Translations under genes and position numbers: made by a program | In this document: piece by piece, positions 36,401 through 64,000 of the stretch | How positions within the stretch are numbered: position 1 is the stretch's first letter | Layout of the letters: each line of letters begins with the position of its first letter | Notes under the pieces: generated by a model | The model's database searches: none | The model's input: the letters and a program-made list of their open reading frames with translations, nothing else | Told to the model about the DNA's origin: nothing | DNA from: the human T2T-CHM13v2.0 reference genome, Homo sapiens | NCBI RefSeq assembly: GCF_009914755.1 | Contig: NC_060933.1 | Length of the DNA stretch: 64,000 nucleotides | Direction: 5' to 3' (one strand)

Positions 36401-39400
36401 CCATTCTATTGCATTCCATTCTATTCGGGTTAATTCCATTCCATTCTATTCCATTCCATTCCATTCCATTGCAATGGAGTTGATTCCATTCCATTCCATT
36501 CCATTCCGGATGATTCCATTCCATTGCATTCCATTCCATTCCATTCCCCTGCACTCGTGTTGATTCCATTCCCTTCCATTCCATTCCATTCCGTTCCATT
36601 CCATTCCATTCCATTCTATTCCGGTTAATTCCATTCCATTCCATTCCATTCCATTCCATTCCATTCCATTGCAATCGAGTTGATTCCATTCCATTCCTTT
36701 CCATTCCATTCCATTGCCTTGCATTCCACTCGGGTTGATTCCATTCCCTTCTTTCCACTCCATTACATTCCCTTCCATTCCACTCGGAATGATTGATTCC
36801 ATTCCATTCCATTCCATTTCATTCCATTGCAATCTATTCCAATCCATTCCATTGCATTCCATTCCACTCGAGTTGACTTCAGTCCATTCCTTTCCATTCC
36901 ATTCCATTCCTTTCCACTCGAGTTGATTCCATTCCATTCCATTCCATTGCATTCCATTCCATGCCATTCCACTCGGGTTGATTCCATTCCATTCCATTCC
37001 ATTCCATTCCATTCCATTCCATTCCGTTGCATTCCATTCCATTACATTCGGATTGATTCTATTCAACTCCCTTACTGTCCATTACATTCCATTCCATTCC
37101 ATACCATTCCATTCCATTCCATTCCATTCCATTCCGTTCCATTCCGTTCCATTCCGTTCCATTGCATTCCATTCTATTCGGGTTAATTCCATTCCATTCC
37201 ATTCCATTCCATTCTATTCCATTCCATTGCAATCGAGTTCAATCCATTGCATTTCATTCCATTCCATTCCATTCCATTCCATTCCGGAAGATCCCATTCC
37301 ATTGCATTCCATTCCATTCCATTCCCCTGCACTCGCGTTGATTCCATTCCATTCCATTCCATTCCATTCCATTCCATTCCATTCCGTTCCGTTACATTCC
37401 ATTCTATTCCATTCCATTCCATTCCGTTCCGTTCCATTCCATTCCATTCCATTCTATTCGGGTTAATTCCATTCCATTCCATTCGATTGCAATCGTGTTG
37501 ATTCCATTCCATTCCATTCCATTCCATTCCATTCCTTTCCATTCCATTACGGATGATTCCATTCCATTGCATTCCATTCCATTCCATTCCCCTGTACTCG
37601 GGTTGATTCCATTCCATTGCATTCCAATGCATGCCCTTCCACTCGTGTTGATTCCATTCTTTCAATTCCATTCAAGTTGAATCCATTCCATTGCATTCCA
37701 TTCCATTCGATTCCATTCAATTGCACTCGGGTTGATTCCATTCCATTGCATTCCATTCCATTCCATTCCATTCCATTCCATTCCGTTCCATTCCATTCCA
37801 TTACATTCGGATTGATTCTATTCAACTCCCTTACTATACATTACATTCCATTCGATTCGGGCTGTTCCATTCCATTCCATTCCATTCCACTCCATTCCAT
37901 TGCACTCGGGTTTATTCCATTCCATTCCATTCCATTCCATTCCATTCGATTCCATTCCGGAAGATTCCATTCCATTGCATGCCATTGCATTCCATTCCCC
38001 TGCACTCGCGTTGATTCCATTCCATTCCATTCCATTCCATTCCATTCCATTCCATTCCATTCCTTTCCGTTCCATTCCATTCCATTCCATTCCATTCCAT
38101 TCCGTTGCGTTCCGTTCCGTTCCATTCCATTCCATTCCATTCTATTCGGGTTAATTCCATTCCATTCCATTCTATTCGGGTTAATTCCATTCCATTCCAT
38201 TCTATTCCATTCCATTCCATTCCAATCGAGTTCATTGCATTCCATTCCATTCCATTCCATTCCATTCCATTCCATTCCACTGCATTCCACTCCTTTCCAT
38301 TCCATTCCACTCGGGTTGATTCCAATGTATTCCTTTCCATTCCATTCCATTCCATTGCAATCGAGTTGATTCCATTGCTTTGCATTCCATTGCATTCCAT
38401 TCCATTCCGGATGATTTCATTCCATTGCATTCCATTCCATTCCATTCCCCTGCACTCGGGTTGATTCCATTCCATTCCACTCCATTCCGTTCCATTCCAT
38501 TCCATTCCATTGTATTCGGGTTAATTCCATTCCATTCCATTCCATTCCATTCCATTCCATTCCATTCCATTCCATTACAATCGAGTTGATTCCATTCCAT
38601 TCCATTCCATTCCAGTCCTTTCCATTCCATTCCACTCGGGTTGATTCCATTCTATTAGTTTCCATTCCATTCCATTCCCTTCCATTCCAATCTGGTTGAT
38701 TCCATTCCTTTCCATTCCACTCAAAAACATTCCCTCCTATTCCACTCGGAACGATTCCATTCCATTCCATTCAATTCCATTCCATTCCATTCAATTCCAT
38801 TCCATTCCATTTCGTTCCATTCCATTCTATTCCGTATCATTCCATTCCATTCCATTCCATTCCATTAAATTCCATTCCATTCCATTCCATTCCATTGTAC
38901 TCGGGTTGATTCCATTCCATTGCATTCCATTCCATTGCATTCCATTCCATTCCGTTGCATTCCATTCCATTACATTCGGATTGATTCTATTCAACTCCCT
39001 TACTCTCCATTACATTCCATTCTATTCGGGTTGTTCCATTCCATTCCATTCCATTCCACTCCATTCCATTGCACTCGGGTTGATTCCATTCCATTCCATT
39101 CCATTCCATTCCATTCCGGATGATTCCATTCCATTGCATTCCGTTCCATTACATTCCCCTGCACTCGCGTTGATTCCATTCCATTCCATTCCATTCCATT
39201 CAATTCCATTCCATTACAATTCGTTCCATTCCATTCTATTCCGTACCATTCCATTCCATTCCATACCATTCCATTCCTTTCCATTCCATTCCTTTCCATT
39301 CCATTCCATTCCATTCCATTCCGTTCCATTCCATTCCATTCCATTCTATTCGGATTAATTCCATTCCATTCCATTCCATTCCATTCCATTCCATTGCATT

Positions 39401-42400
39401 CTATTCCATTCCATTGCAATCGAGTTGAATCCATTGCATTTCATTCCATTCCATTCCATTCCATTCCATTCCGGAAGATTCCATTCCATTGCATTCCATT
39501 CCATTCCATTCCCCTGCACTCGCGTTGATTCCATCCCATTCCATTCCATTCCATTCCATTCCATTCCGTTCCGTTCCATTCCATTCCATTCCATTCCATT
39601 ACATTCCGTTCCGTTCCATTCCATTCCATTCCATTCCATTCCGTTCCATTCCATTCCATTCCATTCCATTCTATTCGGGTTAATTCCATTCCATTCCATT
39701 CGATTGCAATCGAGTTGATTCCATTCCATTCCATTCCATTCCATTCCATTTCATTCCTTTCCGTTCCATTACGGATGATTCCATTCCATTGCATTCCATT
39801 CCATTCCATTCCCCTGTACTCGGGTTGATTCCATTCCATTCCATTCCAATCCATGCCATTCCACTCGTGTTGATTCCATTCTTTCCATTCCATTCAAGTT
39901 GAATCCATTCCATTGCATTCCATTCCATTCGATTCCATTCGATTGCACTCGGGTTGATTCCATTCCATTCCATTCCATTCCATTCCGTTCCATTCCATTC
40001 CATTACATTCGGATTGATTCAATTCTATTCCCTTACACTCCATTACATTCCATTCCATTCGGGTAGTTTCCATTCCATTCCTTTCCATTCCTCTCCTTTC
40101 CATTGCACTCGGGTTGATTCCATTCCATTGCATTCCATTCCATTCCATTCAATTCCATTCCGTTCCATTCCATTCCATTACATTCGGATTGATTCTATTC
40201 AAGTCCCTTACTCTCCATTACATTCCATTCCATTCGGGTTGTTCCATTCCATTCCATTCCATTCCACTCCATTCCATGGCACTCGGGTTGATTCCATTCC
40301 ATTCCATTGCATTCCATTCCATTCCATTCCATTCCGGAAGATTCCATTCCATTGCATTCCATTCCATTCCATTCCCCTGCACTCGCGTTGATTCCATTCT
40401 ATTCCATTCTATTCCATTCCATTCCCTTCCTTTCCGTTCCATTCTATTCCATTCCATTGCATTCCATTCCATTCCATTCCGTTCCGTTCCATTCCATTCC
40501 ATTCCATTCTATTCGGTTAATTCCATTCCATTCCATTCGATTGCAATCGAGTTGATTCCATTCCATTCCATTCCATTCCATTCCATTCCATTCCTTTCCA
40601 TTCCATTACGGATGATTCCATTCCATTGCATTCCATTCCATTCCATTCCCCTGCACTCGGGTTGATTCCATTCCATTCCATTCCATTCCATTCCGTTCCA
40701 TTCCATTCCATTCCATTCGGATTGATTCTATTCAATTCCCTTACACTCTATTACATTCCATTCCATTCGGGTAGTTTCCATTCCATTCCATTCCATTCCT
40801 CTCCATTCCATTGCACTCGAGTTGATTCCATTCCATTCCATTCCATTCCAGTCCTTTCCATTCCATTCCAATCGGGTTGATTCCATTCTATTAGTTTCCA
40901 TTCCATTCCATTCCCTTCCATTCCACTCTGGTTGATTCCATTCCTTTCCATTCCACTCGAATACATTCCCTCCTATTCCACTCGGAACGATTCCATTCCA
41001 TTCCATTCCATTCCATTCCATTCCATTCCATTCCATTTCGTTCCATTCCATTCTATTCCGTATCATTCCATTCCATTCCATTCCATTCCATTCCACTCGT
41101 GTTGATTCCATTCCTTTCCATTCCATTCGGTTTGAAGGCATTCCATTCCATTCCATTCCATTCCATTCCATTCCATTCCATTCCATTGTACTCTGGTTGA
41201 TTGCATTCCATTGCATTCCATTCCATTCCACTCCCCTACACTCGCGTTGATTCCATTCCATTCCATTCCATTCCATTCCGTTCCGTTCCATTCCATTCCA
41301 TTCCATTCAATCCCATTCCATACCATTCCGTTCCGTTCCATTCCATTCCATTCCATTCCATTCCATTCCATTCCATTCCATTCCGTTCTTTTCCATTCCA
41401 TTCCATTCTATTCGGGTTAATTCCATTCCATTCCATTCGATTGCAATCGTGTTGATTCCATTCCATTGCATTCCATTCCATTCGATTCCATTCGATTGCA
41501 CTCAGGTTGATTCCATTCCATTGCATTCCATTCCATTAAATTCTATTCCATTCCATTCCATTCCGTTCCATTCCTTTCCATTACATTCGGATTGATTCTA
41601 TTCAATTCCCTTACACTCCATTACATTCTATTCCATTCGGGTAGTTTCCACTCCATTCCATGCCATTCCTCTCCATTCCATTGCACTCGGGTTGATTCCA
41701 TTCCATTGCATTCCATTCCATTCCATTCAATTCCATTCCGTTCCATTCCATTCCATTACATTCGGATTGATTCTATTCAACTCCCTTACTCTCCATTACA
41801 TTCCATTCCATTCGGGTTGTTCCATTCCTTTCCATTCCATTCCACTCCATTCCATTGCACTCGAGTTTATTCCGTTCCATTCCATTCCATTCCATTCCAT
41901 TCCATTCCATTCCATTCCATTCCTTTCTGTTCCATTCCATTCCATTCCATTCCATTCCGTTCCGTTCCGTTCCGTTCCGTTCCATTCCATTCCATTCCAT
42001 TCTATTCGGGTTAATTCCATTCCATTCCATTCGACTTCAATCGAGTTGATTCCATTCCATTCCATTCCATTCCATTCCATTCCATTCCATTCTTTCCATT
42101 CCATTCAAGTTGAATCCATTCCTTTGCATTCCATTCCATTCCATTCCCCTGCAGTCGGGTTGATTCCATTCCATTCCATTCCATTCCATTGCACTCCATT
42201 CCATTCCGTTCCGTTCCGTTCCATTCCATTCCATTCCATTCCATTCTATTCGGGTTAATTCCATTCCATTCCATTCCATTCCATTCCATTCCAATCGAGT
42301 TGATTCCATTCCATTCCATTCCATTCCATTCCACTCCATTCCAGTCCTTTCCATTCCATTCCACTCGGGTTGATTCCAATGTATTCCTTTCCATTCCATT

Positions 42401-44759
42401 GCATTCCATTGCAATCGAGTTGATTCCATTGCTTTGCATTCCATTCCATTCCATTGCATTCCGGATGATTCCATTCCATTGCATTCCATTCCATTCCATT
42501 CCCCTGCACTCGGGTTGATTCTATTCCATTCCATTCCGTTCCGTTCCATTCCATTCCATTCCATTCTATTCGGGTTAATTCCATTCCATTCCATTCGATT
42601 GCAATCGTGTTGATTCCATTCCATTCCATTCCATTCCATTCCATTCCATTCCTTTCCATTCCATTACGGATGATTCCATTCCATTGCATTCCATTCCATT
42701 CCATTTCCCTGTACTCGGGTGGATTCCATTCCATTGCATTCCAATCCATGCCCTTCCACTCGTGTTGATTCCATTCTTTCCATTCCATTCAAGTTGAATC
42801 CATTCCATTGCATTCCATTCCATTCGATTCCATTCGATTGCACTCGGGTTGATTCCATTCCATTGCATTCCATTCCATTCCATTCCATTCTGTTCCATTC
42901 CATTCCATTACATTCGGATTGATTCTATTCAATTCCCTTACACTCCATTACATTCCATTGCATTCGGGTAGTTTCCATTCCGTTCCATTCCATTCCTCTC
43001 CATTCCATTGCACTCGGGTTGATTCCATTCCATTGCATTCCATTCCATTCCATTCAATTACATTCCGTTTCATTCCATTCCATTTCATTCTGATTGATTC
43101 TATTCAACTCCCTTACTCTCCGTTACATTCCATTCCATTCGGGCTGTTCCATTCCATTCCATTCCATTCCACTCCATTCCTTTGCACTCGGGTTTATTCC
43201 ATTCCATTCCATTCCATTCCATTCCATTCCATTCCATTCCATTCCGGAAGATTCCATTCCATTGCATTCCATTCCATTCCATTCCCCTGCACTCGCGTTG
43301 ATTCCATTCAATTCCATTCCATTCCATTCCATTCCTTTCCGTTCCATTCCATTGCATTCCATTCCATTCCATTCCATTCCATTCCGTTCCCTTCCGTTCC
43401 ATTCCATTCCATTCCATTCTATTCGGGTTAATTACATTCCATTCCATTCGATTGCAATCGAGTTGATTCCATTCCATTCCATTGCATTCCATTCCATTCC
43501 ATTTCTTTCCATTCCATTACGGATGATTCCATTCCATTGCATTCCATTCCGTTCCATTCCCCTGTACTCGGGTTCATTCCATTCCATTCCATTCCAATCC
43601 ATGCCATTCCACTCGTGTTGAATCCATTCTTTCCATTCCATTCAAGTTGAATCCATTCCATTGCATTCCATTCCATTCCATTCCCCTGCAGTCGGGTTGA
43701 TTCCATTCCATTCCATTCCATTCCATTCCATTCCATTCCATTCCATTCCGTTCCTTTCCGTTCCATTCCATTCCATTCCATTCTATTCGGGTTAATTCCA
43801 TTCCATTCCATTCCATTCCATTCCATTCCATTCCAATCGAGTTGATTCCATTCCATTCCATTCCATTCCATTCCACTGCATTCCAGTCCTTTCCATTCCA
43901 TTCCACTCGGGTTGATTCCAATGTATTCCTTTCCATTCCATTCCATTCCATTGCAATCGAGTTGATTCCATTGCTTTGCATTCCATTCCATTCCATTCCA
44001 TTCCGGATGATTGCATTCCATTGCATTCCATTCCATTCCATTCCCCTGCACTCGGGTTGATTCCATTCCATTCCACTCCATTCCGTTCCATTCCATTCCA
44101 TTCCACTGTATTCGGGTTAATTCCATTCCATTCCATTCCATTCCATTCCATTCCATTCCTTTACAATCGAGTTGATTCCATTCCATTCCATTCCATTCCA
44201 TTCCATTCCATTCCAGTCCTTTCCATTCCATTCCACTCGGGTTGATTCCATTCTATTAGTTTCCATTCCATTCCATTCCCTTCCATTCCACTCTGGTTGA
44301 TTCCATTCCTTTCCATTCCACTCGAATACATTCCCTCCTATTCCACTCGGAACGATTCCAATCCATTCCATTCCGTTCCATTCCATTCCATTCCATTCCA
44401 TTTCGTTCCATTCCATTCTATTCCGTATCATTCCATTCCATTCCATTCCATTCCATTCCATTCCACTCGTGTTGATTCCATTCCTTTCCATTCCATTCGG
44501 TTTGAAGGCATTCCATTCCATTCCATTCCATTCCATTCCATTCCGTTCCTTTCTGTTCCGTTCCGTTCCGTTCCATTCCATTCCATTCCATTCTATTCGG
44601 GTTAATTCCATTCCATTCCATTCCATTCCATTCCATTCTATTCCATTCCATTGCAATCGAGTTGAATCCATTGCATTCAATTCCATTCCATTCTATTCCA
44701 TTCCATTGCAATCGAGTTGAGTCCATTGCATTCCATTCCATTCCATTCCATTCCATTCC

Positions 44760-44819
44760 ATTCCGGAAGATTCCATTCCATTGCATTCCATTCCATTCCA
44801 TTCCATTCCGGAAGATTCC
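44760..44819. promoter_or_regulatory. Two consensus HSE motifs 45 bp apart (local duplication)
   Basis: ATTCCGGAAGATTCC at 44760-44774 and 44805-44819. Confidence 0.5.
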
Positions 44820-45099
44820 ATTCCATTGCATTCCATTCCATTCCATTCCCCTGCACTCGCGTTGATTCCATTCCATTCCATTCCATTCCATTCCATTCCA
44901 TTCCTTTCCGTTCCATTCCATTCCATTCCATTCCATTCAATTCCGTTCCGTTCCATTCCATTCCATTCCATTCTATTCGGGTCAATTCCATTCCATTCAA
45001 TTCGATTACAATCGAGTTGATTCCATTCCATTCCATTCCATTCCATTCCATTCCATTCCTTTCCATTCCCCTGCACTCGGGTTGATTCCATTCCATTAC

Positions 45100-46100
45100 A
45101 CTCCATTCTTTCCGTTCCATTCCATTCCATTCCATTCCTTTCTATTCGTGTTAATTCCATTCCATTTTATTCCATTCCATTCCATTGAAATCGAGTTGAT
45201 TCCATTCCATTCCATTCCATTCCATTCCATTCCATTCCATTCCGGATGATTCCATTCCATCGCATTGCATTCGATTCCATTCCCCTGCACTCGGGTTGAT
45301 TCCATTCCATTCCATTACATTCCGTTCCACTCCATTCCATTCTAATCTATTCGGGTTAATTCCATTCCATTCCATTCCATTGCATTCCATTCCATTCCAT
45401 TGCAATAGAGTTGATTCCATTCCATTCCATTCCATTCCATTCCAATCGATTTGATTCCATTCCATTCCATTCCATTCCACTCCATTCCAGTCCTTTCCAT
45501 TCCATTCCACTCTGGTTGATTCCATTCTATTCCTTTCCATTCCATTACATTCCATTGCAATCGAGTTGATTCCTTTCGAGTTGAATCCATTCCATTCCGT
45601 TCCATTCCATTACATTGCACACGGGTTCATTCCATTCCATTCCATTCCATTCCATTCCATTCCATTTCATTCCATTCCATTCTATTCCGTACCATTCCAT
45701 TCCATCCCATTCCATTCCATTCCATTCCATGCCATTACACTCGGGTTGATTCCATTCCTTTCCATTCCATTCTTGTTGAATCCATTCCATTCCATTCTAT
45801 TCGATTCCATTCCATTGCACTCAGGTTGATTCCATTCCATTCCATTCCATTCGATTTCATTCCATTCCATTCCATTACATTCGGATTGATTCTATTCAAT
45901 TCCCTTACACTCCATTACATTCCATTCCATTCGGGATGTTTCCATTCCATTCCATTCCATTCCACTCCATTCCATTGCATCGGGTTGATTCCATTCCATT
46001 CCATTCCATTCCATTCAATTCCATTCCATTCCATTCCATTCGATTCCGGATGATTCCATTCCATTGCATTCCATTCCATTCCATTCCCCTGCACTCGGGT
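45100..46100 (+). repeat. Diverged long-range direct copy of ~7400-8300 (offset ~37.8 kb)
   Basis: Markers I found only in these two places: GCACACGGGTTC 7826/45617, TTCTTGTTGAATCC 7984/45770, CGGGATGTTT 8151/45932. Confidence 0.75.
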
Positions 46101-48532
46101 TGATTACATTCCATTCCCTCCCCTTCCATTCCTTTCCATTGCATTCCATTCCATTCTATTCGGGTGAATTCCATTCCATTCCATTCCATTCCATTTCATT
46201 CCATTCCATTCCATTGCAATCGAGTTGATTCCATTCCATTCCATTCCATTCCTTTCCAGATTATTCCATTCCATTGCATTCCATTCCATTCCATTCCCCT
46301 GCACTCGGGTTGATTCCTTTCCATTCCATTCCCTTCCATTCCATTCTATTCCATTCCGTTCCATTCCATTCCATTCCATTCTATTCGGGTTAATTCCAGT
46401 CCATTCCATTCCATTCCATTCCATTCCAATCGAGTTGATTCCATTCCATTCCATTCCATTCCACTCCATTCCAGTCCTTTCCATTCCATTCCACTCGGGT
46501 TGATTCCATTCTATTCCTTTCCATTCCATTCCATTGCAATCGAGTTGATTCCATTGCATTGCATTCCATTCCATTCCATTACATTCCGGATGATTCCATT
46601 CCATTGCATTCCATTGCATTCCATTCCCCTGCACTCGGGTTGATTCCATTCCATTCCACTGCATTCCATTCCATTCCATTCCATTCCATAGTATTCGGGT
46701 TAATTCCATTCCATTCCATTCCATTCCATTCCATTCCACTCTATTACAATCGAGTTGATTCCATTCCATTCCATTCCATTCCATTCCATTCCTTTGCATT
46801 CCATTCCACTCGGGTTGATTCCATTCTATTAGTTTCCATTCCATTCCATTCCCTTCCATTCCACTCTGGTTGATTCCACTCCTTTCCATTCCACTCGTAT
46901 ACATTCCCTCCTAATCCACTCGGAACAATTCCATTCCATTCCATTCCATTCCATTCCATTCCATTTCGTTCCATTCCATTCTATTCCGTACCATTCCATT
47001 CCATTCCATTCCATTCCATTCCATTCCACTCGTGTTGATTCCATTCCTTTCCATTCCATTCGGTTTGAAGCCATTCCATTCAATTCCATTCCATTCCATT
47101 CCATTCCATTCCATTCCATTCCATTCCATTCCATTTCATTCCATTGTGCTCGGGTTGATTCCATTCCATTGCATTCCATTCCATACCATTCAATTCCATT
47201 CCGTTCCATTCCATTCCATTACATTCGGATTGATTCTATTCAACTCCCTTACTTTCAATTACATTCCATTCCATTCGGATTGATTGTATTCAACTCCCTT
47301 ACTCTCCATTACATTCCATTCCATTTGGGTTGTTCCATTCCATTCCATTCCATTCCACTCCATTCCATTCCATTCTATTCGGATTAATTCCATTCCATTC
47401 CATTCCATTCCATTCTATTCCATTCCATTGCAATCGAGTTGAATCCATTGCATTTCCTTCCATTCCATTCCATTCCATTCCATTCCGGAAGTTTCCTTTC
47501 CATTGCATTCCATTCCATTCCATTCCCCTGCACTCGCGTTGATTCCATTCCATTCCATTCCATTCCATTCCACTCCGTTCCATTCCGTTCCATTCCATTC
47601 CATTCCATTCCATTCCGTTCCGTTCCGTTCCATTCCATTCCATTCCATTCTATTCGGGTTAATTCCATTCCATTCCATTCGATTGCAATCGAGTTGATTC
47701 CATTCCATTCCATTCCATTCCATTCCATTCCTTTCCATTCCATTACGGATGATTCCATTCCATTGCATTCCATTCCATTCCATTCCCCTGTACTCGGGTT
47801 GATTCCATTCCATTCCATTCCAATCCATGCCATTCCACTCGTGTTGATTCCATTCTTTCCATTCCATTCAAGTTGAATCCATTCCATTGCATTCCATTCC
47901 ATTCGATTCCATTCGATTGCACTCGGGTTGATTCCATTCCATTGCATTCCATTCCATTCCATTCCATTCCATTACATTACATTCCATTACATTCGGATTG
48001 ATTCTATTCAATTCCCTTACACTCCATTACATTCCATTCCATTCGGGTAGTTTCCATTCCATTCCATTCCATTGCTCTCCATTCCATTGCACTCGGGTTG
48101 ATTCCATTCCATTGCATTCCATTCCATTCCATTCCTTTCCATTCCATTCCATTACATTCGGATTGATTCTATTCAACTCCCTTATTCTCCATTACATTCC
48201 ATTCCATTTGGGTTGCTCCATTCCATTCCATTCCATTCCACTCCATTCCATTGCACTCGGGTTGATTCCATTCCATTCCATTCCATTCCATTCCATTCCA
48301 TTCCATTCCGGAAGATTCCATTCCATTGCATTCCATTCCATTCCATTCCCCTACACTCGCGTTGATTCCATTCCATTCCATTCTATTTCATTCCATTCCC
48401 TTCCTTTCCGTTCCATTCCATTCCATTCCATTCCATTCCATTCCATTCCGTTCCGTTCGATTCCATTCCATTCCATTCTATTCGGGTTAATTCCATTCCA
48501 TTCCATTCGATTGCAATCGAGTTGATTCCATT

Positions 48533-48636
48533 CCATTCCATTCCATTCCATTCCATTCCATTCCATTCCTTTCCATTCCATTACGGAATGGAATGGAATG
48601 GAATGGAATGGAATGGTATGGAATGGAATGGAATGG
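48533..48636. other. Inversion (strand-switch) breakpoint within the satellite array
   Basis: The sequence reads ...TTCCTTTCCATTCCATT-ACGG-AATGGAATGGAATGG... Elsewhere CATTACGGA continues as TGATTCC (e.g. ~47743, ~43514); here it runs directly into GGAAT repeats. Confidence 0.95.
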
Positions 48637-51600
48637 TATTGAATAGAATGGAATGGAACGAATTGTAATGGAATGGAATTGAATGGAATGGAATGGAATC
48701 AACGCGAGTGCAGGGGAATGTAATGGAACGGAATGCAATGGAATGGAATCATCCGGAATGGAATGGAATGGAATGGAATGGAATGGAATGGAATGGAATG
48801 GAATCAACCCGAGTGCAATGGAAAGGAGTGGAATGGAATGGAATGGAATGGAACAACCCGAATGGAGTGGAATGTAATGGAGAGTAAGGGAGTTGAATAG
48901 AATCAATCCGAATGTAATGGAATGGAATGCAACGGAATGGAATGGAATGGAATGGAATGGAATGCAATGGAATTGAATCAACCCGAGTACAATGGAATGG
49001 AATGGAATGGAATGGAATGGAATGGAATGGAATGGAATGGAATGATACGGAATAGAATGGAATGGAACGAAATGGAATGGAATGGAATGGAATGGAATGG
49101 AATGGAATGGAATGGAATGGAATTGTTCCGAGTGGAATAGGAGGGAATGTGTTCGAGTGGAATGGAAAGGAATGGTATCAACCAGAGTGGAATGGAAGGG
49201 AATGGAATGGAATGGAAACCAATAGAATGGAATCAACCCGAGTGGAATGGAATGGAAAGGACTGGAATGGAATGGAATGGAAAGGAATCAACTCGATTGT
49301 AATGGAATGGAATGGAATGGAATGGAATGGAATGGAATTAACCCGAATACAATGGAATGGAATGGAATGGAACGGAATGGAGTGGAATGGAATGGAATCA
49401 ACCCGAGTGCAGGGGAATGGAATGGAATGGAATGCAATGGAATGGAATCATCCGGAATGGAATGGAATGGAATGGAATGGAATGCAAAGCAATGGAATCA
49501 ACTCGATTGCAATGGAATGGAATGGAATGGAAAGGAATACATTGGAATCAACGCGTGTGGAATGGAATGGAATGGAAAGGACTGGAATGGAGTGGAATGG
49601 AATGGAATGGAATGGAATGGAATCAACTCGATTGGAATGGAATGGAATGGAATGGAATGGAATTAACCCGAATAGAATGGAATGGAATGGAATGGAACGG
49701 AACGGAATGGAATGGAATGGAATGGAATGGAATGGAATGGAATGGAATCAACCCGACTGCAGGGTAATGGAATGGAATGGAATGCAATGGAATGGATTCA
49801 ACTTGAATGGAATGGAAAGAATGGAATTAACACGAGTGGAATGGCATGGATTGGAATGGAATGGAATGGAATCAACCGGAGTACAGGGGAATGGAATGGA
49901 ATGGAATGCAATGGAATGGAATCATACGGAATGGAATGGAATGGAATGGAATGGAATGGAATGGAATGGAATGGAATGGAATCAATCCGAGTGCAATGGA
50001 ATGGAGTGGAATGGAATGAAATGGAATGGAACAACCCGAATGGAATGGAATGTAATGGAGAGTAAGGGAGTTGAATAGAATCAATCCGAATGTAATGGAA
50101 TGGAATGCAACGGAATGGAATGGAATGGAATGGAATGGAATGCAATGGAATGGAATCAACGGGAGTACAATGGAATGCAATGGACTGGAATGGAATGGAA
50201 TAGAATGGAATGGAATGAAATGGGATGCCTTCAAACCGAATGGAATGGAAAGGAATGAAATCAACACGAGTGGAATGGAATGGAATGGAATGGAATGGAA
50301 TGATACGGAATAGAATGGAATGGAACGAAATGGAATGGAATGGAATGGAATGGAATGGAATGGAATGGAATGGAATGGAATGGAATCGTTCCGAGTGGAA
50401 TAGGAGGGAAAGTATTCGTGTGGAATGGAAAGGAATGGAATCAACCAGAGTGGAATGGAAGGGAATGGAATGGAATGGAAACTAATAGAATGGAATCAAC
50501 CCGAGTGGAATGGAATGGAAAGGACTGGAATGGAAAGGAGTGGAATGGAATGGAATGGAATGGAATGGAATGGAATGGAATGGAATGGAATCAACGCGAG
50601 TGCAGGGGAATGGAATGGAATCGAATGGAATGGAATGGAATGGAATGGAATCAACCCGAGTGCAGGGGACTGTAATGGAACGGAATGCAATGGAATGGAA
50701 TCATCCGGAATGGAATGCAATGGAATGGAATGGAATCAACCCGAGTGCAATGGAATGGAGTGGAATGGAATGGAATGGAATGGAACAATCCGAATGGAAT
50801 GTAATGTAATGGAGAGTAAGGGAGTTGAAAAGAATCAATCCAAATGTAATGGAATGGAACGCGATGGAATGGAATGGAATGGAATGGAATGGAACGGAAT
50901 GCAATGGAATGGAATCAAACCGAGTACAATGGAATGGAATGGAATGGAATGGAATGGAATGGAATGGAATGGAATGGAATGATACGGAATAGAATGGAAT
51001 GGAACGAAATGGAATGGAATGGAATGGAATGGAATGGAATGGAATGGAATGGAATCGTTCCGAGTGGATTAGGAGAGAATGTATTCGAGTGAAATGGAAA
51101 GGAATGGAATCAACCAGAGTGGAATGGAAGGGAATGGAATGGAATGGAAACTAATAGAATGGAATCAACCCGAGTGGAATGGAATGGAAAGGACTGGAAT
51201 GGAATGGAATGGAATGGAATCAACTCGATTGTAATGGAATGGAATGGAATGGAATGGAATGGAATGGAATGGAATCAACCCGAGTGGAATGGAATGGAGT
51301 GGAATGGAATGGAATGGAATGGAGAGTAAGGGAGTTGAATAGAATCAATCCGAATGTAATGGAATTGAATGGAACGGAATGGAATGGAATGGAATGGAAT
51401 GGAAACTACCCGAATGGAATGGAATGTAATGCAGTGTAAGGGAATTGAATAGAATCAATCCGAATGTAATGGAAAGGAATGGAACGGAATGGAATGGAAT
51501 GGAATGGAATGGAATGGAATGGAATGGAATGCAATGGAATGGAATCAACCCGAGTGCAATCGAATGGAATCAAATTGAATGGAATGCAATGGAATGGATT

Positions 51601-54600
51601 CAACTTGAATGGAATGGAAAGAATGGAATGAACACGAGTGGAATGGCATGGATTGGAATGGAATGGAATGGAATCAACCCGAGTACAGGGGAATGGAATG
51701 GAATGGAATGCAATGGAATGGAATCATCCGTAATGGAATGGAAAGGAATGGAATGGAATGGAATGGAATGGAATGGAATGGAATGGAATGGAATCAACTC
51801 GATTGCAATCGAATGGAATGGAATGGAATTAACCCGAATAGAATGGAATGGAATGGAATGGAACGGAACGGAATGGAATGGAATGGAATGGAACGGAACG
51901 GAATGGAACGGAATGGAATGGAATGGAATCAACGCGAGTGCAGGGGAATGGAATGGAATGGAATGCAATGGAATGGAAACTTCCGGAATGGAATGGAATA
52001 GACTGGAATGGAATGGAATGAAATGCAATGGATTCAACTCGATTGCAATGGAATGGAATAGAATGGAATGGAATGGAATGGAATGGAATGGAATGGAATT
52101 AATCCGAATAGAATGGAATGGAATGGAATGGAACGGAATGGAACGGAATGGAATGGAATGGAATGGAATGGAATGGAATGGCATGGAATGGAATGGAATG
52201 GTACAGAAAAGAATAGAATGGAACGAATTGTAATGGAATGGAATTGAATGGAATGGAATGGAATGGAATGGAATCAACGCGAGTGCAGGGGAATGTAATG
52301 GAACGGAATGCAATGGAATGTAATCATCCGGAATGGAATGGAATGGAATGGAAAGGAATGGAATCAACCTGAGTGCAATGGAATGGTGTGGAATGGAATG
52401 GAATGGAATGGAACAACCCGAATGGAATGGAATGTAATGGAGAGTAAGGGAGTTGAATAGAATCAATCCGAATGTAATGGAATGGAATAGAACGGAATGG
52501 AATGGAATGGAATGGAATGCAATGGAATGGAATCAACCCGAGTGCAATCGAATGGAATCACATTGAATGGAATGCAATGGAATGGATTCAACTTGAATGG
52601 AAAGGAAAGAATGGAATCAACACGAGTGGAAGGGCATGGATTGGAATGCAATGGAATGGAATCAACCCGAGTACAGGGGAATGGAATGGAATGGAATGCA
52701 ATGTAATGGAATCATCCGTAATGGAATGGAAGGGAATGGAATGGAATGGAATGGAATCAACACGATTACAATCGAATGGAATGGAATGGAATTAACCCGA
52801 ATAGAATGGAATGGAATGGAATGGAACGGAACGGAATGGAATGGAATGGAATGGAATGGAATGGAACGGAACGGAACGGAATGGAATGGAATGGAATGGA
52901 ATGGAATGGAATCAACGCGAGTGCAGGGGAATGGAATGGAATGGAATGCAATGGAATGGAATCTTCCGGAATGGAATGGAATGGAATGGAATAGAATGGA
53001 ATGGAATGGAATGGAATGGAATCAACCCGAGTACAGGGGAATGGAATGGAATGTATTGCAATGGAATGGAATCATCCGTAATGGAATGGAAAGGAATGGA
53101 ATGGAATGGAATGGAATGGAATGGAATGGAATCAACTCGATTGCAATCGAATGGAATGGAATGGAATTAACCCGAATAGAATGGAATGGAATGGAACGGA
53201 ACGGAACGGAACGGAATGGAATGGAATCGAGTGGAACGGAACGGAATGGAATGGAATGGAATGGAATGGAATGGAATGGAATCAACGCGAGTGCAGGGGA
53301 ATGGAATGGAATGGAATGCAATGGAATGGAATCTTCCGGAATGGAATGGAATGGAATGCAATGGATTCAACTCGATTGCAATGGAATGGAATAGAATGGA
53401 ATGGAATGGAATGGAATGGAATTAACCCGAATAAAATGGAATGGAATGGAATGGAACGGAACGGAACGGAACGGAATGGAATGGAATGGAATGGAATGGT
53501 ATGGAATGGAATGGAATGGTACGGAATAGAATGGAATGGAAAGAATTGGAATGGAATGGAATCGAATGGAATGGAATGGAATGGAATGGAATCAACCCGA
53601 GTGCAGGGGAATGTAATGGAACGGAATGTAATGGAATGGAATCATCCGGAATGGAATGGAATGGAATGGAATGGAATGGAATGGAATGGAACCAACTCGA
53701 TTGTGATGGAATGGAATGGAATGGAATGGAATGGAATTAACCCGAATACAATGGAATGGAATGGAATGGAACGGAATGGAGTGGAATGGAATGGAATCAA
53801 CCCGAGTGCAGGGGAATGGAATGGAATGGAATGCAATGGAATGGAATGCAATGGAATGGAATGGAATGGAATGGAATGCAAAGCAATGGAATCAACTCGA
53901 TTGCAATGGAATGGAATGGAATGGAAAGGAATACATTGGAATCAACCCGAGTGGAATGGAATGGAAAGGACTGGAATGGAGTGGAATGGAATGCAATGGA
54001 ATGGAATGGAATCAACTCGATTGGAATGGAATGGAATGGAATGGAATGGAATGGAATGGAATGGAATTAACCCGAATAGATTGGAATGGAATGGAATGGA
54101 ATGGAACGGAACGGAACGGAATGGAATGGAATGGAATGGAATGGAATGGAATGGAATCAACCCGACTGCAGTGGAATGGAATTGAATGGAATGCAATGGA
54201 ATGGATTCAACTTGAATGGAATGGAAAGAATGGAATCAACACGAGTGGAATGGCATGGATTGGAATGGAATGGAATGGAATCAACCCGAGTACAGGGGAA
54301 TGGAATGGAATGGAATGCAATGGAATGGAATCATCCGTAATGGAATGGAAAGGAATAGAACGGAATGGAATGGAATGGAATGGAATGGAATGGAATCAAC
54401 TCGATTGCAGTCGAATGGAATGGAATGGAATTAACCCGAATAGAATGGAATGGAATGGAATGGAACGGAACGGAAGGGAACGGAACGGAATGGAATGGAA
54501 TGGAATGGAATGGAACGGAAAGGAATGGAATGGAATGGAATGGAATGGAATGGAATGGAATCAACGCGAGTGCAGGGGAATGGAATGGAATGGAATGCAA

Positions 54601-57600
54601 TGGAATGGAATCTTCCGGAATGGAATGGAATGGAATGGAATGGAATGGAATTAACCCGAATAGAATGGAATGGAATGGAATGGAACGGAACGGAATGGAA
54701 TGGAATGGAATGGAATGGAATGGAATGGAATGGAATCAACGCGAGTGCAGGGGAATGGAATGTAATGGAATGCAATGGAATGGAATCTTCCGGAATGGAA
54801 TGGAATGGAATGGAATGGAATCAACCCGAGTGCAATGGAATGGAGTGGAATGGAATGGAATGGAATGGAACAACCCGAATGGAATGGAATGTAATGGAGT
54901 GTAAGGGAGTTGAATAGAATCAATCCGAATGTAATGGAATTGAATGGAATGGAACGGAATGGAATTGAATGGAATGGAATGGAATGCAATGGAATGGAAT
55001 CAACCCGAGTGCAATGGAATGGAGAGGAATGGAATGGAATGTAGTGGAAACTACCCGACTGGAATGGAATGTAATGGAGTGTAAGGGAATTGAATAGAAT
55101 CAATACGAATGTAATGGAAAGGAATGGAACTGAATGGAATGGAATGGAATGGAATGGAATGGAATGGAATGGAATGCAATGGAATGGAATCAACCCGAGT
55201 GCAATCGAATGGAATCGAATGGAATGGAATGCAATGGAATGGAATCAACTCGATTGCAATCGAATAGAATGGAATGGAATTAACCCGAATAGAATGGAAT
55301 GGAACGGAATGGAAAGGAACGGAATCGAATGGAATGTAATGGAATGGAATGGAACGGAATGGAATGGAATGGAATCAACGCGAGTGCAGGTGAATGTAAT
55401 GGAACGGAATGCAATAGAATGGAATCATCCGGAATGGAATGGAATGGAATCAACCCGAGTGCAATGGAATGGAGTGGAATGGAATGGAATGGAATGGAAC
55501 AACCCGAATGGAATGGAACGTAATGGAGAGTAAGGGAGTTGAATAGAATCAATCCGAATGTAATGGAATGGAATGCAACGGAATGGAATGGAATGGAATG
55601 CAATGGAATGCAATCAACCCGAGTACAATGGAATGGAATGGAATGGAATGGAATGGAATGGAATGGAATGCCTTCAAACCGAATGGAATGGAAAGGAATG
55701 GAATCAACACGAGTGGAATGGAATGGAATGGAATGAAATGGAATGGAATGGAATGATACGGAATAGAATGGAATGGAACGAAATGGAATGGAATGGAATG
55801 GAATGGAATGGAATGGAATGGAATCGTTCCGAGTGGAATAGGAGGGAATGTATTCGAGTGGAATGGAAAGGAATGGAATCAACCAGAGTGGAATGGAAGG
55901 GAATGGAATGGAATGGAAACTAATAGAATGGAATCAACCCGAGTGGAATGGAATGGAAAGGACTGGAATGGAATGGAACGGAATGGAATGGAATGGAATG
56001 GAATCAACTCGATTGTAATGGAATGGAATGGAATGGAATGGAATGGAATGGAATGGAATGGAATTAACTCGAATACAATGGAATGGAATGGAATGAAACG
56101 GAATGGAGTGGAATGGAATGGAATCAACCCGAGTGCAGGGGAATGGAATGGAATGGAATGCAATGGAATGGAATCATCCGGAATGGAATGGAATGAAATG
56201 GAATGCAAAGCAATGGAATCAACTCGATTGCAATGGAATGGAATGGAATGGAAAGGAATACATTGGAATCAACCCGAGTGGAATGGAATGGAATGGAAAG
56301 GACTGGAATGGAGTGGAATGGAATGGAATAGAATGGAATGGAATCAACTCGATTGGAATGGAATGGAATGGAATGGAATGGAATGGAATTAACCCGAATA
56401 GAATGGAATGGAATGGAATGGAACGGAACGGAACGGAATGGAATGGAATGGAATGGAATGGAATGGAATGGAATCAACCCGACTGCAGGGGAATGGAATG
56501 GAATGGAATGCAATGGAATGGAATCATCCGGAATGGAATGGAATGGAATGCAATGGAATGGAATCAACCCGAGTGCAATTGAATAGAGTGAAATGGAATG
56601 GAAACAAGCAGAATGGATTGGAATATAATGGAGTGTAAGGGAATTGAATAGAATCAATCTGAATGTAATGAAATGGAATGGAACGGAATGGAATGGAATG
56701 GAATGGAATGGAATGGAATGGAATGCAATGGAATGGAATCAACCCGAGTGCAATCGAATGGAATCGAATGGAATGGAATGCAATGGAATGGATTCAACTT
56801 GAATGGAAAGGAAAGAATGGAATCAACACGAGTGGAATGTCATGGATTGGAATGGAATGGAATGGAATCAACCCGAGTACAGGGGAATGGAATGGAATGG
56901 AATGCAAAGGAATGGAATCATACATAATGGAATGGAATGGAATGGAATGGAATGGAATGGAATGGAATCAACTCGATTGCAATCGAATGGAATGGAATGG
57001 AATTAACCCAAATAGAATGGAATGGAATGGAATGGAATGGAACGGAACGGAACGGAATGGAATGGAATGGAATGGAATGGAACGGAACGGAACGGAATGG
57101 AATGGAATGGAATGGAATGGAATGGAATCAACGCGAGTGCAGGGGAATGGAATGGAATGGAATGCAATGGAATGGAATCTTCCGGAATGGAATGGAATGG
57201 AATGGAATGGAATGAAATGCAATGGATTCAACTCGATTGCAATGGATTGGAATAGAATGGAATGGAATGGAATGGAATGGAATTAACCTGAATAGAATGG
57301 AATGGAATGCAATGGAACGGAATGGAACGGAATGGAATGGAATGGAATGGAATGGAATGAAATGGTATGGAATGGAATGGAATGGTACGGAATAGAATGG
57401 AATGGAACGAATTGTAATGGAATGGAATTGAATGGAATGGAATGGAGTCAACGCAATTGCAGGGGAATGTAATGGAACGGAATGCAATGGAATGGAATCA
57501 TCCGGAATGGAATGGAATGGAATGGAATGGAATGGAATGGAATGGAATCAACCCGAGTGCAATGGAATGGAGTGCAATGGAATGGAATAGAGTGGAATTG

Positions 57601-60600
57601 AATGGAATTGAATGGAACAACACGAATGGAATGGAATGTAATGGAGAGTAAGGGAGTTGAATAGAATCAATCTGAATGTAATGGAATGCAACGGAATGGA
57701 ATGGAATGGAATGGAATGGAATGCAATGGAATGGAATCAACCCGAGTACAATGGAATGGAATGGAATGGAATGGAATGGAATGGAATGGAATGGAATGGT
57801 ATGGAATGGAATGGAATGGTACGGAATAGAATGGAATGGAACGAATTGTAATGGAATGGAATTGAATGGAATGGAATGGAATGGAATGGAATCAATGCGA
57901 CTTCAGGGGAATGTAATGGAACGGAATGTAATGGAATGGAATCATCCGGAATGGAATGGAATGGAATGGAATGGAATCAACCCGAGTGCAATGGAATGGA
58001 GTGGAATGGAATGGAATGGAATGGAACAACCCGAATGGAATGGAATGTAATGGGGAGTAAGTGAGTTGAATAGAATCAATCCGAATGTAATGGAATGGAA
58101 TGCAACGGAATGGAATGGAATGGAATGGAATGGAATGGAATGCAATGGAACGGAATGCAATGGAATGGAATCAACCCGAGTACAATGGAATGGAATGGAA
58201 TGGAATGGAATGGAATGGAATGGAATGGAATTGAATGGAATGAAATGCCTTCAAACCGAATGGAATGGAAAGGAATGGAATCAACACGAGTGGAATGGAA
58301 TGGAATGGAAAGGAATGGAATGGAATGGAATGATACGGAATAGAATGGAATGGAACGAAATGGAATGGAATGGAATGGAATGGAATGGAATGGAACGGAA
58401 TGGAGTGGAATGGAATGGAATCAACCCGAGTGCAGGGGAATGGAATGGAATGGAATGCAATGGAATGGAATTAACCCGAATAAAATGGAATGGAATGGAA
58501 TGAAACGGAATGGAGTGGAATGGAATGGAATTAACCCGAGTGGAGGGGAATGGAATGGAATGGAATGCAATGGAATGGAATCATCCGGAATGGAATGGAA
58601 TGGAATGGAATGCAAAGCAATGGAATCAACTCGATTGCAATGGAATGGAATGGAATGGAAAGGAATACATTGGAATCAACCCGAGTGGAATGGAATGGAA
58701 AGGAGTGGAATGGAGTGGAATGGAATGGAATGGAATGGAATGGAATCAACTCGATTGGAATGGAATGGAATGGAATGGAATGGAATGGAATGGAATGGAA
58801 TTAACCCGAATAGAATGGAATTGAATGGAATGGAACGGAACGGAACGGAATGGAATGGAATGGAATGGAATCAACCCGACTGCAGGGGAATGGAATGGAA
58901 TGGAATGCAATGGAATGGATTCAACTTGAATGGAATGGAAAGAATGGAATCAACACGAGTGGAATGGCATGGATTGGAATGGAATGGAATGGAATCAACC
59001 CGAGTACAGGGTAATGGAATGGAATGGAATGCAATGGAATGGAATCATCCGTAATGGAATGGAAAGGAATGGAATGGAATGGAATGGAATGGAATGGAAT
59101 GGAATGGAATCAACCCGATTGCAATGGAATGGAATGGAATGGAATTAACCCGAATAGAATGGAATGCAATGTAATGGAACGGAACGGAACGGAATGGAAT
59201 GGAATGGAATGCAATGGAACGGAAAGGAATGGAATGGAATGGAATGGAATGGAATGGAATGGAATGGAATCAACGCGAGTGCAGGGGAATGGAATGGAAT
59301 GGAATGCAGTGGAATGGAATCTTCCGGAAGGGAATGGAATGGAATGGAATGCAATGGAATAAACCCGAGTGCAATGGAATGGAGTGGAATGGAATGGAAT
59401 GGAATGGAACAACCCGAATGGAATGGAATGTAATGGAGAGTAAGGGAGTTGAATAGAATCAATCCGAATGTAATGGAATGGAATGGAACGGAATGGAATT
59501 GAATGGAATGGAATGGAATGCAATGGAATGGAATCAACCCGAGTGCAATGGAATGGAGAGGAATGGAATGGAATGGAGTGGAAACTACCCGAATGGAATG
59601 GAATGTAATGGAGTGTAAGGGAATTGAATAGAATCAATCCGAATGTAATGGAAAGGATTGGAAAGGAATGGAATGGAATGGAATGGAATGGAATGGAATG
59701 CAATGGAATGGAATCAACCCGAGTGCAATCGAATGGAATCGAATGGAATGGAATGCAATGGAATGGAATCAACTCGATTGCAATCGAATGGAATGGAATG
59801 GAATTAACCCGAATAGAAACGAATGGAATGGAATGGAAAGGAACGGAACGGAATGGAATGGAATGGAATGGAATGGAACGGAACAGAATGGAATGGAAAG
59901 GAATGGAATGGAATCAACGCGAGTGCAGGGGAATGGAATGGAATGGAATGCAATTGAATGGAATCTTCCGGAATGGAATGGAATGGAATGGAATGGAATG
60001 AAATGCAATGGATTCAACTCGATTGCAATGGAATGGAATAGAATGGAATGGAATGGAATGGATTGGAATTAACCCGAATAGAATGGAATGTAATGCAATG
60101 GAACGGAATGGAATGGAATGGAATGGAATGGAATGGAATGGAATGGTATGGAATGGAATGGAATGGTACGGAATAGAATGGAATGTAACGAATTGTAATG
60201 GAATGGAATTGAATGGAATGGAATGGAATCAACGCGAGTGCAGGGGAATGTAATGGAACGGAATGCAATGGAATGGAATCATCCGGAATGGAATGGAATG
60301 GAATAGAATGGAATGGAATGGAATCAACCCGAGTGCAATGGAATGGAGTGAAATGGAATGGAATGGAATGGAGACAACCAGAATGGATTGGAATATAATG
60401 GAGTGTAAGGGAATTGAATAGAATCAATCTCAATGTAATGAAATGGAATGGAACGGAATGGAATGGAATGGAATGGAATGGAATAGAATGCAATGGAATG
60501 GAATCAACCCGAGTGCAATCGAATGGAATCGAATGGAATGGAATGCAATGGAATGGATTCAACTTGAATGGAATGGAAAGAATGGAATCAACACGAGTGG

Positions 60601-63600: not shown

Positions 63601-64000
63601 AGGAGGGAATGTATTCGAGTGGAATGGAAAGGAATGGAATCAACCAGAGTGGAAAGGAAGGGAATGGAATGGAATGGAAACTAATAGAATGGAATCAACC
63701 CGAGTGGAATGGAATGGAAAGGACTGGAATGGAATGGAATGGAATGGAATGGAATGGAATGGAATCAACTCGATTGTAATGGAATGGAATGGAATGGAAT
63801 GGAATGGAATGGAATGGAATGGAATTAACCCGAATACAATGGAATGGAATGGAATGGAACGGAATGGAGTGGATTGGAATGGAATCAACCCGAGTGCAGG
63901 GGAATGGAATGGAATGGAATGCAATGGAATAGAATCATCCGGAATGGAATGGAATGGAATGGAATGCAAAGCAATGGAATCAACTCGATTGCAATGGAAT
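48588..64000 (-). repeat. HSat3-type array in inverted orientation, (GAATG)n on + strand
   Basis: The same vocabulary appears reverse-complemented (CAACCCGAGT, CAACTCGATT, CAACGCGAGT, TAACCCGAAT) from 48588 to the window end. The ORF track also flips here, with MEWNG frames moving from - to +. Confidence 0.97.
62350..63800 (-). repeat. Inverted copy of ~8750-10050
   Basis: Reverse-complement markers: GGAAGGAACTGG ~63536 vs CCAGTTCCTTCC ~8995; GAGTCATCCGT ~63052 vs ACGGATGACTC ~9360; CAACTCGATGGCA ~63111 vs TGCCATCGAGTTG ~9259; GAAGTCAACTCGAG ~62485 vs CTCGAGTTGACTTC ~9905. Confidence 0.8.

What the first reader, a model, noticed from the sequence alone, without database searches (positions are those of the whole stretch)
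48533..48636. Clean inversion junction with ACGGA microhomology and no inserted sequence
Seen: the left arm ends in the common module ...TTCCATTACGGA, which normally continues TGATTCC. The right arm starts with CGGAATGG..., the reverse complement of the ...CATACCATTCC(ATTCC)nG module, which normally reads GGAACGGAATGG. (A)CGGA at 48583-48587 therefore fits both parental modules. Inference: the inversion formed by microhomology-mediated joining or template switching at one of the few purine-containing CpG words that both strands share. Established: strand switches occur in large HSat arrays of complete human assemblies, so this class of event is known. I cannot tell whether this particular junction has been described.
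Basis: partly seen in the sequence, partly recalled or inferred. Interest (0 to 1): 0.8.

Follow-up and report, generated by a model that had tools for sequence, protein, structure and literature searches.

The report
Amplified founder inversion junction in HSat3
The strand flip in this chromosome 9 satellite array is real and was joined cleanly at a five-base overlap, but it is one of eleven copies of a single old junction spread by large duplications, in an array already known to be full of such flips.

Summary
At window 48583-48587 the satellite switches from CATTC-type to GAATG-type text, and this is the only switch in the window. No base is unaccounted for. ACGGA fits both reconstructed parents: 27 of 32 left-arm modules continue ATGATTCC, and the right-hand module's run ends GTTCC in 13 of 20 copies. 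Random break pairs in this sequence give an overlap of 5 or more bases in only 0.15-0.19% of trials.

It is not a private local inversion. The same junction, with the same flanks, occurs 11 times on chr9 (52.7-74.8 Mb; 7 forward, 4 reverse). These are six distinct copies, 84-99% alike in their flanks. Five of them have near-identical twins 8.7-10.6 Mb away, from the published 9qh+ duplication of CHM13.

The next reverse switch lies 19.1 kb to the right, outside the window. It occurs only here and in the twin, is younger, has about 1 base of overlap, and lacks the complementary module end.

Other junction types in the array have 80, 38 and 28 copies.

Best reading: one old microhomology-mediated founder event, later amplified and flipped. 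End-joining and template switching cannot be told apart. The class is published (Altemose, Nurk). Interest is modest.

The parts
1..48583 (.). Left arm: HSat3 text in CATTC orientation. It runs beyond the window's left edge.
   Evidence: GC skew about -0.6; CATTC/GAATG counts.
48570..48587 (+). Broken left parental module TTTCCATTCCATTACGGA. Intact copies continue TGATTCC.
   Evidence: 27 of 32 other left-arm copies continue ATGATTCC. The left parent matches the product through 48587 in 1062 anchor hits.
48583..48587 (.). Junction J1: 5-base overlap ACGGA shared by both parents, with no inserted base.
   Evidence: Chance of an overlap of 5 or more is 0.0015-0.0019. The word is intact in 11 of 11 chr9 copies.
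48584..48620 (-). Broken right parental module. On the minus strand it reads CATACC(ATTCC)6G; intact copies continue TTCC.
   Evidence: 13 of 20 window copies and 36 of 59 copies in 264 kb end the run with GTTCC. Long-context paralogs lie at 13387, 19261 and 39297.
48584..64000 (.). Right arm: inverted block in GAATG orientation. It continues 3.7 kb past the window, to chr9:52,767,697, for a total of 19,114 bases.
   Evidence: the 200 kb fetched to the right.
48533..48636 (.). Near-palindrome around the junction: a 48-bp stem with 2 mismatches and an ACGG loop. This follows from joining two pure pentamer runs head to head.
   Evidence: Single-strand DNA fold -54.4 kcal/mol; shuffles -17.4 +/- 3.0; z -12.3.
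48270..49700 (.). Core block that all six distinct copies of the junction share: about 300 bases of left arm and about 1.1 kb of right arm, at 87-100% identity per 150-column bin.
   Evidence: Binned identity of copies L003, L009, L002 and L004 to this copy; pairwise identities.

Best explanation
This is a genuine head-to-head strand switch inside the chr9 HSat3 array, and it descends from a single founder event.

Inferred origin. In that event a CATTC-strand module broken after ...TTTCCATTCCATTACGGA was joined to an inverted copy of the module CATACC(ATTCC)nG|TTCC. The join used the 5-base word ACGGA, whose complement TCCGT is present in the other module, and no base was added. Two mechanisms fit: alternative end-joining of two breaks, or a replicative template switch primed by the overlap. 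They cannot be separated here.

Shown afterwards. The junction, with at least about 0.3 kb of left flank and about 1.1 kb of right flank, was carried along by repeated large duplications of the array, and some copies were flipped. CHM13 now holds 11 copies. Five of the six distinct copies were doubled by the recent multi-megabase 9qh+ tandem duplication.

Shown here. The 19.1-kb inverted block in this window is closed on its far side by a later, unrelated junction. It is therefore not a simple two-break inversion made in place.
For: Real switch, with both parents reconstructed from many paralogs.

A 5-base overlap against a chance of 0.0015-0.0019.

Copy number:
- The 31-mer across the junction occurs 9 times.
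- The 14-mer core occurs 11 times on chr9, plus one unrelated chr8 hit in non-satellite text.
- Allowing 3 mismatches adds only one dissimilar site at 76.54 Mb.

All 11 copies show the same flanking modules on both sides.

Flank identity between distinct copies is 83.6-98.5% on the left and 94.2-98.9% on the right over 1.5 kb each.

The six twin pairs (five J1 pairs and the J2 pair), 8.74-10.63 Mb apart, differ by 1 mismatch and 30 gap bases in about 18.1 kb. [quoted passage not shown] (passages read).

The far junction J2 occurs only twice, here and in the twin. Its GAATG-side parent is carried unbroken by 4 paralogs in copy L003's inverted arm.

The partner junction differs between copies: L003's inverted arm is 29.8 kb long and ends in another junction type.

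Amplification is general in this array. Other junction types have 80, 38 and 28 exact copies, all on chr9.
Against: The parents are inferred from paralogs, not observed. 7 of 20 window copies of the right-hand module do not end the run with GTTCC.

No reciprocal partner of the founder event was found, so neither sub-mechanism is shown.

No reads and no other human or ape assemblies could be examined. Read support and the age of the junction therefore rest on the published validation of the assembly and on the divergence between copies.

Left-arm homology ends about 300-450 bases from the junction in two copies. This shows later turnover and limits how much of the founder can be reconstructed.

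Only about 2.4 Mb of the generic switch scan was listed, so the share of all switches explained by the named families is a sample, not a census.
Confidence: 0.8

Rival explanations
1. A local, private two-break inversion of the 19.1-kb block made in place. The junction in the window would be one end and the switch 19.1 kb to the right would be its reciprocal end.
For: The block is short and bounded by one switch of each type. The sequence just right of the far junction holds an intact copy of the very module that is broken at J1, 45 bases in.
Against: J1 has 11 copies, while J2 has only 2, this one and its twin.

J2's GAATG-side parent is a (GGAAT)n run continuing GGAATGGAATCAACCCAAG, not the reverse complement of TGATTCC.

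The best paralogs of J1's left flank (95-96%) have downstream parts only 82-86% like the sequence right of J2. The correlation is 0.05 over 108 modules.
Confidence: 0.03
2. The founder event was a fold-back, that is, a template switch onto the complementary strand close by. It would have made an inverted duplication whose arms were once mirror copies.
For: A 5-base overlap with no insertion is typical of microhomology-primed template switching (established knowledge, recalled). In intact units the CATACC module lies about 390-470 bases upstream of the ATTACGG module, so a nearby donor existed. No reciprocal junction is found, as expected for a one-ended replicative event.
Against: The arms are not mirror copies now. 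The best reverse-complement match of the right arm within 3 kb of the junction is 84.6%, and the best in the whole window is 85-90% at sites 9-35 kb away. Right arms of different junction copies are 94-99% alike. No long near-identical source lies within 264 kb. Later turnover could have erased the signal.
Confidence: 0.3
3. The founder event was a two-break inversion or inverted insertion sealed by microhomology-mediated end-joining. Its reciprocal end was later lost or overwritten.
For: The junction is clean with a 5-base overlap. Another abundant junction type of the array (38 copies) also has a 5-base overlap, CGAGT, between its reconstructed parents. One type has about 1 base and one has none, a spread typical of end-joining.
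Against: No junction with the complementary module ends exists in CHM13 under the motif tried: 0 of 6 hits fit. No junction type keeps a fixed distance to J1 copies.
Confidence: 0.4
4. The same junction formed independently many times, because ACGGA/TCCGT is a hot spot.
For: The other large head-to-head family also starts its GAATG arm at ...ACGGAATGG. TCCGT is frequent, at 378 per 48.6 kb.
Against: All 11 copies share the same two specific modules and more than 1 kb of flank at 94-99%. The array background is about 80-90%. Independent events would pair different module copies.
Confidence: 0.03
5. An assembly artefact, that is, a chimeric join of reads from opposite strands.
For: The chr9 HSat3 array was a complex part of the CHM13 graph. 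No reads could be examined here.
Against: A chimeric join would be unique. This junction recurs in six distinct sequence contexts. [quoted passage not shown]
Confidence: 0.02

Closest known systems
Mosaic inversion structure of the chr9 HSat3B5 array in T2T-CHM13 (Altemose et al., preprint 10.1101/2021.07.12.452052; Nurk et al., preprint 10.1101/2021.05.26.445798)
   Same: Same array and same kind of feature. [quoted passage not shown] Nurk mentions a mosaic inversion structure in some HSat arrays (passages read).
   Different: The passages I read give counts and strand tracks. They give no base-level junctions, parental modules, overlaps or junction families. Their supplements (Tables S6 and S7, Fig. 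S34) were not open to me and may hold more.
[quoted passage not shown]
   Same: It explains the five near-identical twin copies of the junction, 8.74-10.63 Mb apart.
   Different: It accounts only for the last doubling. The six distinct copies, 84-99% alike, need earlier rounds of amplification and flipping.
Microhomology-mediated rearrangement junctions: alternative end-joining, or fork-stalling/template-switching and microhomology-mediated break-induced replication (established knowledge, recalled)
   Same: A short overlap of 5 bases, no inserted bases, and unrelated flanking modules.
   Different: The substrate is a pentameric satellite in which only about a dozen words of 5-6 bases are shared between the strands. 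The product was later amplified. No reciprocal or donor copy is left to tell the mechanisms apart.
Inversions inside alpha-satellite arrays, e.g. the 1.7-Mb inversion in the active chr1 array (Altemose et al.)
   Same: A strand switch inside a long tandem array.
   Different: Those are single large events. Here short inverted blocks (3-30 kb in the 294 kb I read) recur as copies of a few junction types.

Membership tests
Inversion breakpoints (strand switches) of the chr9 HSat3 array | Lies within the chr9 pericentromeric HSat3 array | tested here: met
   The window is chr9:52,700,001-52,764,000 (hub note) and is made of CATTC/GAATG pentamer text throughout.
Inversion breakpoints (strand switches) of the chr9 HSat3 array | Abrupt change of satellite strand | tested here: met
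   The skew flips sign and motif counts flip at 48583-48587.
Inversion breakpoints (strand switches) of the chr9 HSat3 array | Subfamily B5 assignment | not tested
   No subfamily classifier was on hand. The B5 label for this array comes from Altemose et al..
Microhomology-mediated junction | Both parents share a short identical word at the break, more than chance gives | tested here: met
   ACGGA, 5 bases. P(overlap >= 5) = 0.0015-0.0019.
Microhomology-mediated junction | No long homology between the joined flanks | tested here: met
   The left flank is the ATTACGG module. The right flank is the reverse complement of the CATACC module. These are different modules.
Simple two-break inversion | A reciprocal junction carries the complementary ends of both parental modules | tested here: not met
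   The nearest opposite switch is younger and unrelated. 0 of 6 motif hits in the genome fit.
Fold-back inverted duplication | The arms are mirror copies around a short spacer | tested here: not met
   The best nearby arm-to-arm identity is 84.6%, no better than array background. There is no near-identical source within 264 kb. Erasure by later turnover cannot be excluded.
Inversion by recombination between inverted repeats | The breakpoint lies inside long inverted homologous copies | tested here: not met
   For the founder junction, the flanks at the join are different modules sharing only 5 bases. The later flipping of whole copies (4 of 11 reversed) could still be of this kind; this was not tested.

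The most novel reading that the evidence does not exclude
Most strand switches of the 28-Mb chr9 HSat3 array descend from only a handful of founder junctions. Five types seen here have 80, 38, 28, 11 and 2 copies. At least two founders were sealed at 5-base words that both strands share (ACGGA, CGAGT). If so, inversion in this satellite is rare, while block amplification and flipping are frequent. The junction words would then be natural barcodes for reconstructing how 9q12 heterochromatin grew and how it varies between people (9qh+/9qh-).
Probability: 0.55. Interest if true: 0.45.

Novelty: new member of a known kind. Interest (0 to 1): 0.3.

Why it matters
Strand switches in the chr9 satellite block are already on record, so the existence of this one is ordinary.

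The analysis here adds three things:
- The switches fall into a few multi-copy junction families.
- This family's founder was joined at a 5-base overlap, far beyond chance.
- The blocks are later reshaped by younger junctions.

This gives a practical handle. Short junction words are unique within a 28-Mb repeat, and could be used to trace the amplification history and the population variation of 9q12 heterochromatin in pangenome assemblies.

A transcript crossing the junction would fold back on itself. Whether that matters for satellite III RNA from this region is speculation.

Tried and rejected
1. Fold-back or mirror-copy arms. A BLAST of 3 kb on each side against the window found only background identity of 80-90%. 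A 28-mer diagonal scan of the whole 19.1-kb block against 264 kb found no near-identical source.

2. 'Inverted block inserted with a roughly 48-base target duplication'. This was suggested by the intact module 45 bases right of J2. The test was whether the flank left of J1 and the flank right of J2 look like halves of one unit. They do not: r = 0.05 over 108 modules, and the left flank's best paralogs are only 82-86% like the right flank. The nearness of the module remains unexplained. At the module density my own estimate of chance is about 2-3%.

3. J2 as the exact reciprocal with a small deletion. I rejected this once L003's four unbroken paralogs showed the parent to be a (GGAAT)n run.

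4. A conserved partner junction for the J1 family. L003's partner type has 38 copies, with no fixed distance to J1 copies.

5. A DNA similarity search of the genome with the 91-base junction gave nothing, because that mode skips simple repeats. Exact pattern searches worked.

Only 30 kb of copy L003 could be added.

8. The published Science version under the PMC id I recalled for it is not held.

9. Literature:
- No held paper contains 'satellite' + 'inversion breakpoints' + 'microhomology' + 'HSat'.
- 'HSat3B5' gives 4 papers.
- 'HSat3' + 'inversions' + '9q12' gives 2.
- 'human satellite 3' + 'strand' + 'inverted' + 'template switching' gives 1.
- In the passages read, none describes junction sequences.

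Full report
**1. The observation**

The window is pentameric satellite throughout. GC skew is -0.55 to -0.69 in every 1-kb bin up to 48000 and +0.58 to +0.65 from 49001 on. In 200-base bins, CATTC and GAATG counts flip between 48401 and 48601. Only 13 left-arm bins hold a single stray GAATG, and no right-arm bin holds CATTC, so this is the only strand switch in the window. The text reads ...(ATTCC)8 TTTCC ATTCC ATT-ACGGA-ATGG AATGG..., with ACGGA at 48583-48587.

**2. The two parents**

- *Left parent.* ATTACGG occurs 32 times elsewhere in the left arm, almost always as CCTTTCCATTCCATTACGG. Of these, 27 continue ATGATTCC and 31 have A after ACGG. There are 8 further copies, reverse-complemented, in the right arm. 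An anchor-extension test puts the end of the left-parent match at 48587 in 1062 hits.
- *Right parent.* The right arm read on the minus strand ends ...ATTACAATTCGTTCC...CATACC(ATTCC)6G. Its long-context paralogs at 13387, 19261 and 39297 run on as (ATTCC)nGTTCC; a fourth, at 57768, does not.
- *Right-parent counts.* 13 of the 20 other CCATTCCATACC(ATTCC)n copies in the window end the pure run with GTTCC, as do 36 of 59 in window plus 200 kb.
- *Result.* The right parent read GGAACGGAATGG on the plus strand. ACGGA fits both parents, and every base of the product is accounted for.

**3. Chance**

I drew 400,000 random break pairs between CATTC-type text of this window and GAATG-type text, using either the reverse complement of the left arm or the real right arm. 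An overlap of 5 or more bases arose in 0.19% and 0.15% of pairs, and the mean overlap was 0.53. ACGGA is among the dozen or so words of 5-6 bases that give such overlaps.

**4. The junction is not private**

- An exact search of the whole assembly with the 31-mer across the junction found 9 sites, all on chr9.
- The 14-mer core found 11 chr9 sites, plus one in non-satellite text on chr8.
- Allowing 3 mismatches added only one dissimilar site at 76.54 Mb.
- The 11 sites lie at 52.75, 53.80, 53.84, 54.58, 59.67, 61.49, 62.56, 62.60, 63.39, 70.30 and 74.77 Mb. Seven are forward and four reversed.
- All show the same modules on both sides.
- Over 1.5 kb per side, distinct copies are 83.6-98.5% alike on the left and 94.2-98.9% alike on the right. 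The array background is 80-90%.
- The block shared by every distinct copy runs from about 48270 to about 49700.

Five of the six distinct copies have a twin 8.74, 8.76, 8.76, 8.81 or 10.63 Mb further on. Across six twin pairs, including the far junction, I counted 1 mismatch and 30 gap bases in about 18.1 kb. [quoted passage not shown] (passages read).

**5. The other end of the inverted block**

I fetched 200 kb to the right of the window. In window-equivalent coordinates (window plus the fetched 200 kb) the GAATG block ends at 67697, which is chr9:52,767,697. The block is 19,114 bases long. Further blocks of about 21.4 kb and 3.4 kb follow at 215.3-236.7 kb and 254.5-257.9 kb.

The closing junction J2 reads ...AAAGGAATGGAATGGAAT|CCATTCC.... 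Three findings separate it from J1:

- Its 35-mer and its 22-mer occur only twice in the genome, here and in the twin.
- In copy L003 the inverted arm is 29.8 kb long and ends in a different junction.
- L003's arm holds four paralogs of the last 800 bases before J2, and all four run through the break as GGAAT|GGAATGGAATCAACCCAAG.

J2 is therefore younger than J1 and has about 1 base of overlap. Its GAATG side is not the reverse complement of TGATTCC. A motif scan for a clean reciprocal (GGAATGGAATCA, 0-6 bases, TCCATTCC) gave 6 hits. Four, on chr9, read GGAATCAAC|TCCATTCC and lie far from any J1 copy. The other two are on chr7. None fits.

One oddity remains. An intact copy of the module broken at J1 sits 45 bases right of J2. 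I tested whether the two outer flanks were once contiguous, and they do not look so.

**6. Context in the array**

- The two other head-to-head switches in the fetched stretch are one type, CCATTCCATTGCACACGGAATGGAATGG, which has 80 exact copies (47 forward, 33 reverse), all on chr9 at 52.3-76.4 Mb.
- The two tail-to-tail switches there are one type with 28 copies.
- L003's partner type has 38 copies. Its parents share CGAGT, again 5 bases: 50 of 53 CATTC-side paralogs read TGCAATCGAGTT|GATTCC, and the GAATG side reads CCCGAGTGCA.
- The 80-copy type shows no overlap between its reconstructed parents, and the CATTC-side parent of the 28-copy type could not be reconstructed.
- In the listed part of a generic head-to-head scan (chr9 52.3-54.76 Mb), 17 sites appear. 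Twelve are of the 80-copy type, 4 of the J1 type and 1 other. 450 further matches were not listed.

**7. Mechanism**

*Shown:* one founder junction, clean, with a 5-base overlap, flanked by unrelated modules, later copied and flipped.

*Inferred:* microhomology-mediated joining. A fold-back origin finds no support in the present arms. The best arm-to-arm identity near the junction is 84.6%, and no near-identical source lies within 264 kb. However, left-arm turnover in two copies shows that such a signal could have been erased. A two-break origin lacks its reciprocal junction. I put about 0.4 on end-joining and about 0.3 on template switching.

As single-stranded DNA, the 104 bases of the finding fold into a 48-bp stem with two mismatches and an ACGG loop (-54.4 kcal/mol, z -12.3). 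Any head-to-head join of two pentamer runs would do this.

**8. What is known**

[quoted passage not shown] Nurk et al. mention a mosaic inversion structure in some HSat arrays. I saw search listings and passages only. The bioRxiv supplements are closed, and the Science version under the PMC id I recalled is not held. No held paper combines the terms satellite, inversion breakpoints, microhomology and HSat. Other searches and the passages read gave no base-level description.

**9. Verdict**

Noticed in passing
chr9 52.75-59.67 Mb versus 61.49-70.30 Mb (loci L001-L008, L012/L017, L042/L043): Six marker pairs are near-identical: 1 mismatch and 30 gap bases in about 18.1 kb. The offset between pair members grows from 8.74 to 10.63 Mb, so the two copies of the published 9qh+ duplication differ by about 1.9 Mb of insertions or deletions between the markers.
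   Followed up: partly
chr9 51.07-76.4 Mb (positions listed): Three other junction types have 80, 38 and 28 exact copies, in both orientations and all on chr9. The strand switches of this array therefore fall into a few amplified families.
   Followed up: partly
just outside the window, chr9:52,767,698-52,767,760 (locus L022): An intact copy of the module that is broken at the finding sits 45 bases right of the younger closing junction. A former-contiguity test was negative. It is either coincidence (my estimate of chance is about 2-3%) or a break-prone context.
   Followed up: yes
L044-L046 (chr9:54,581,701-54,611,700): The inverted arm of copy L003 holds about four tandem paralogs of the last 5-6 kb of this window's inverted block, with a period of about 11 kb. 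This shows local tandem duplication inside inverted blocks.
   Followed up: partly
window 1941-48580: The ATTACGG module recurs at irregular spacings, clustering near 0.8-0.9 kb, 1.2-1.7 kb and 2.2-3.0 kb. This is a loose nested periodicity rather than a fixed higher-order unit.
   Followed up: no
chr7 58.73-59.04 Mb: On chr7, head-to-head junction words occur at 58,725,948 and 59,037,544, and tail-to-tail words at 58,746,840 (reverse) and 59,010,660 (forward). Each pair reads as mirror images, which suggests a large inverted duplication in pentameric satellite there.
   Followed up: no
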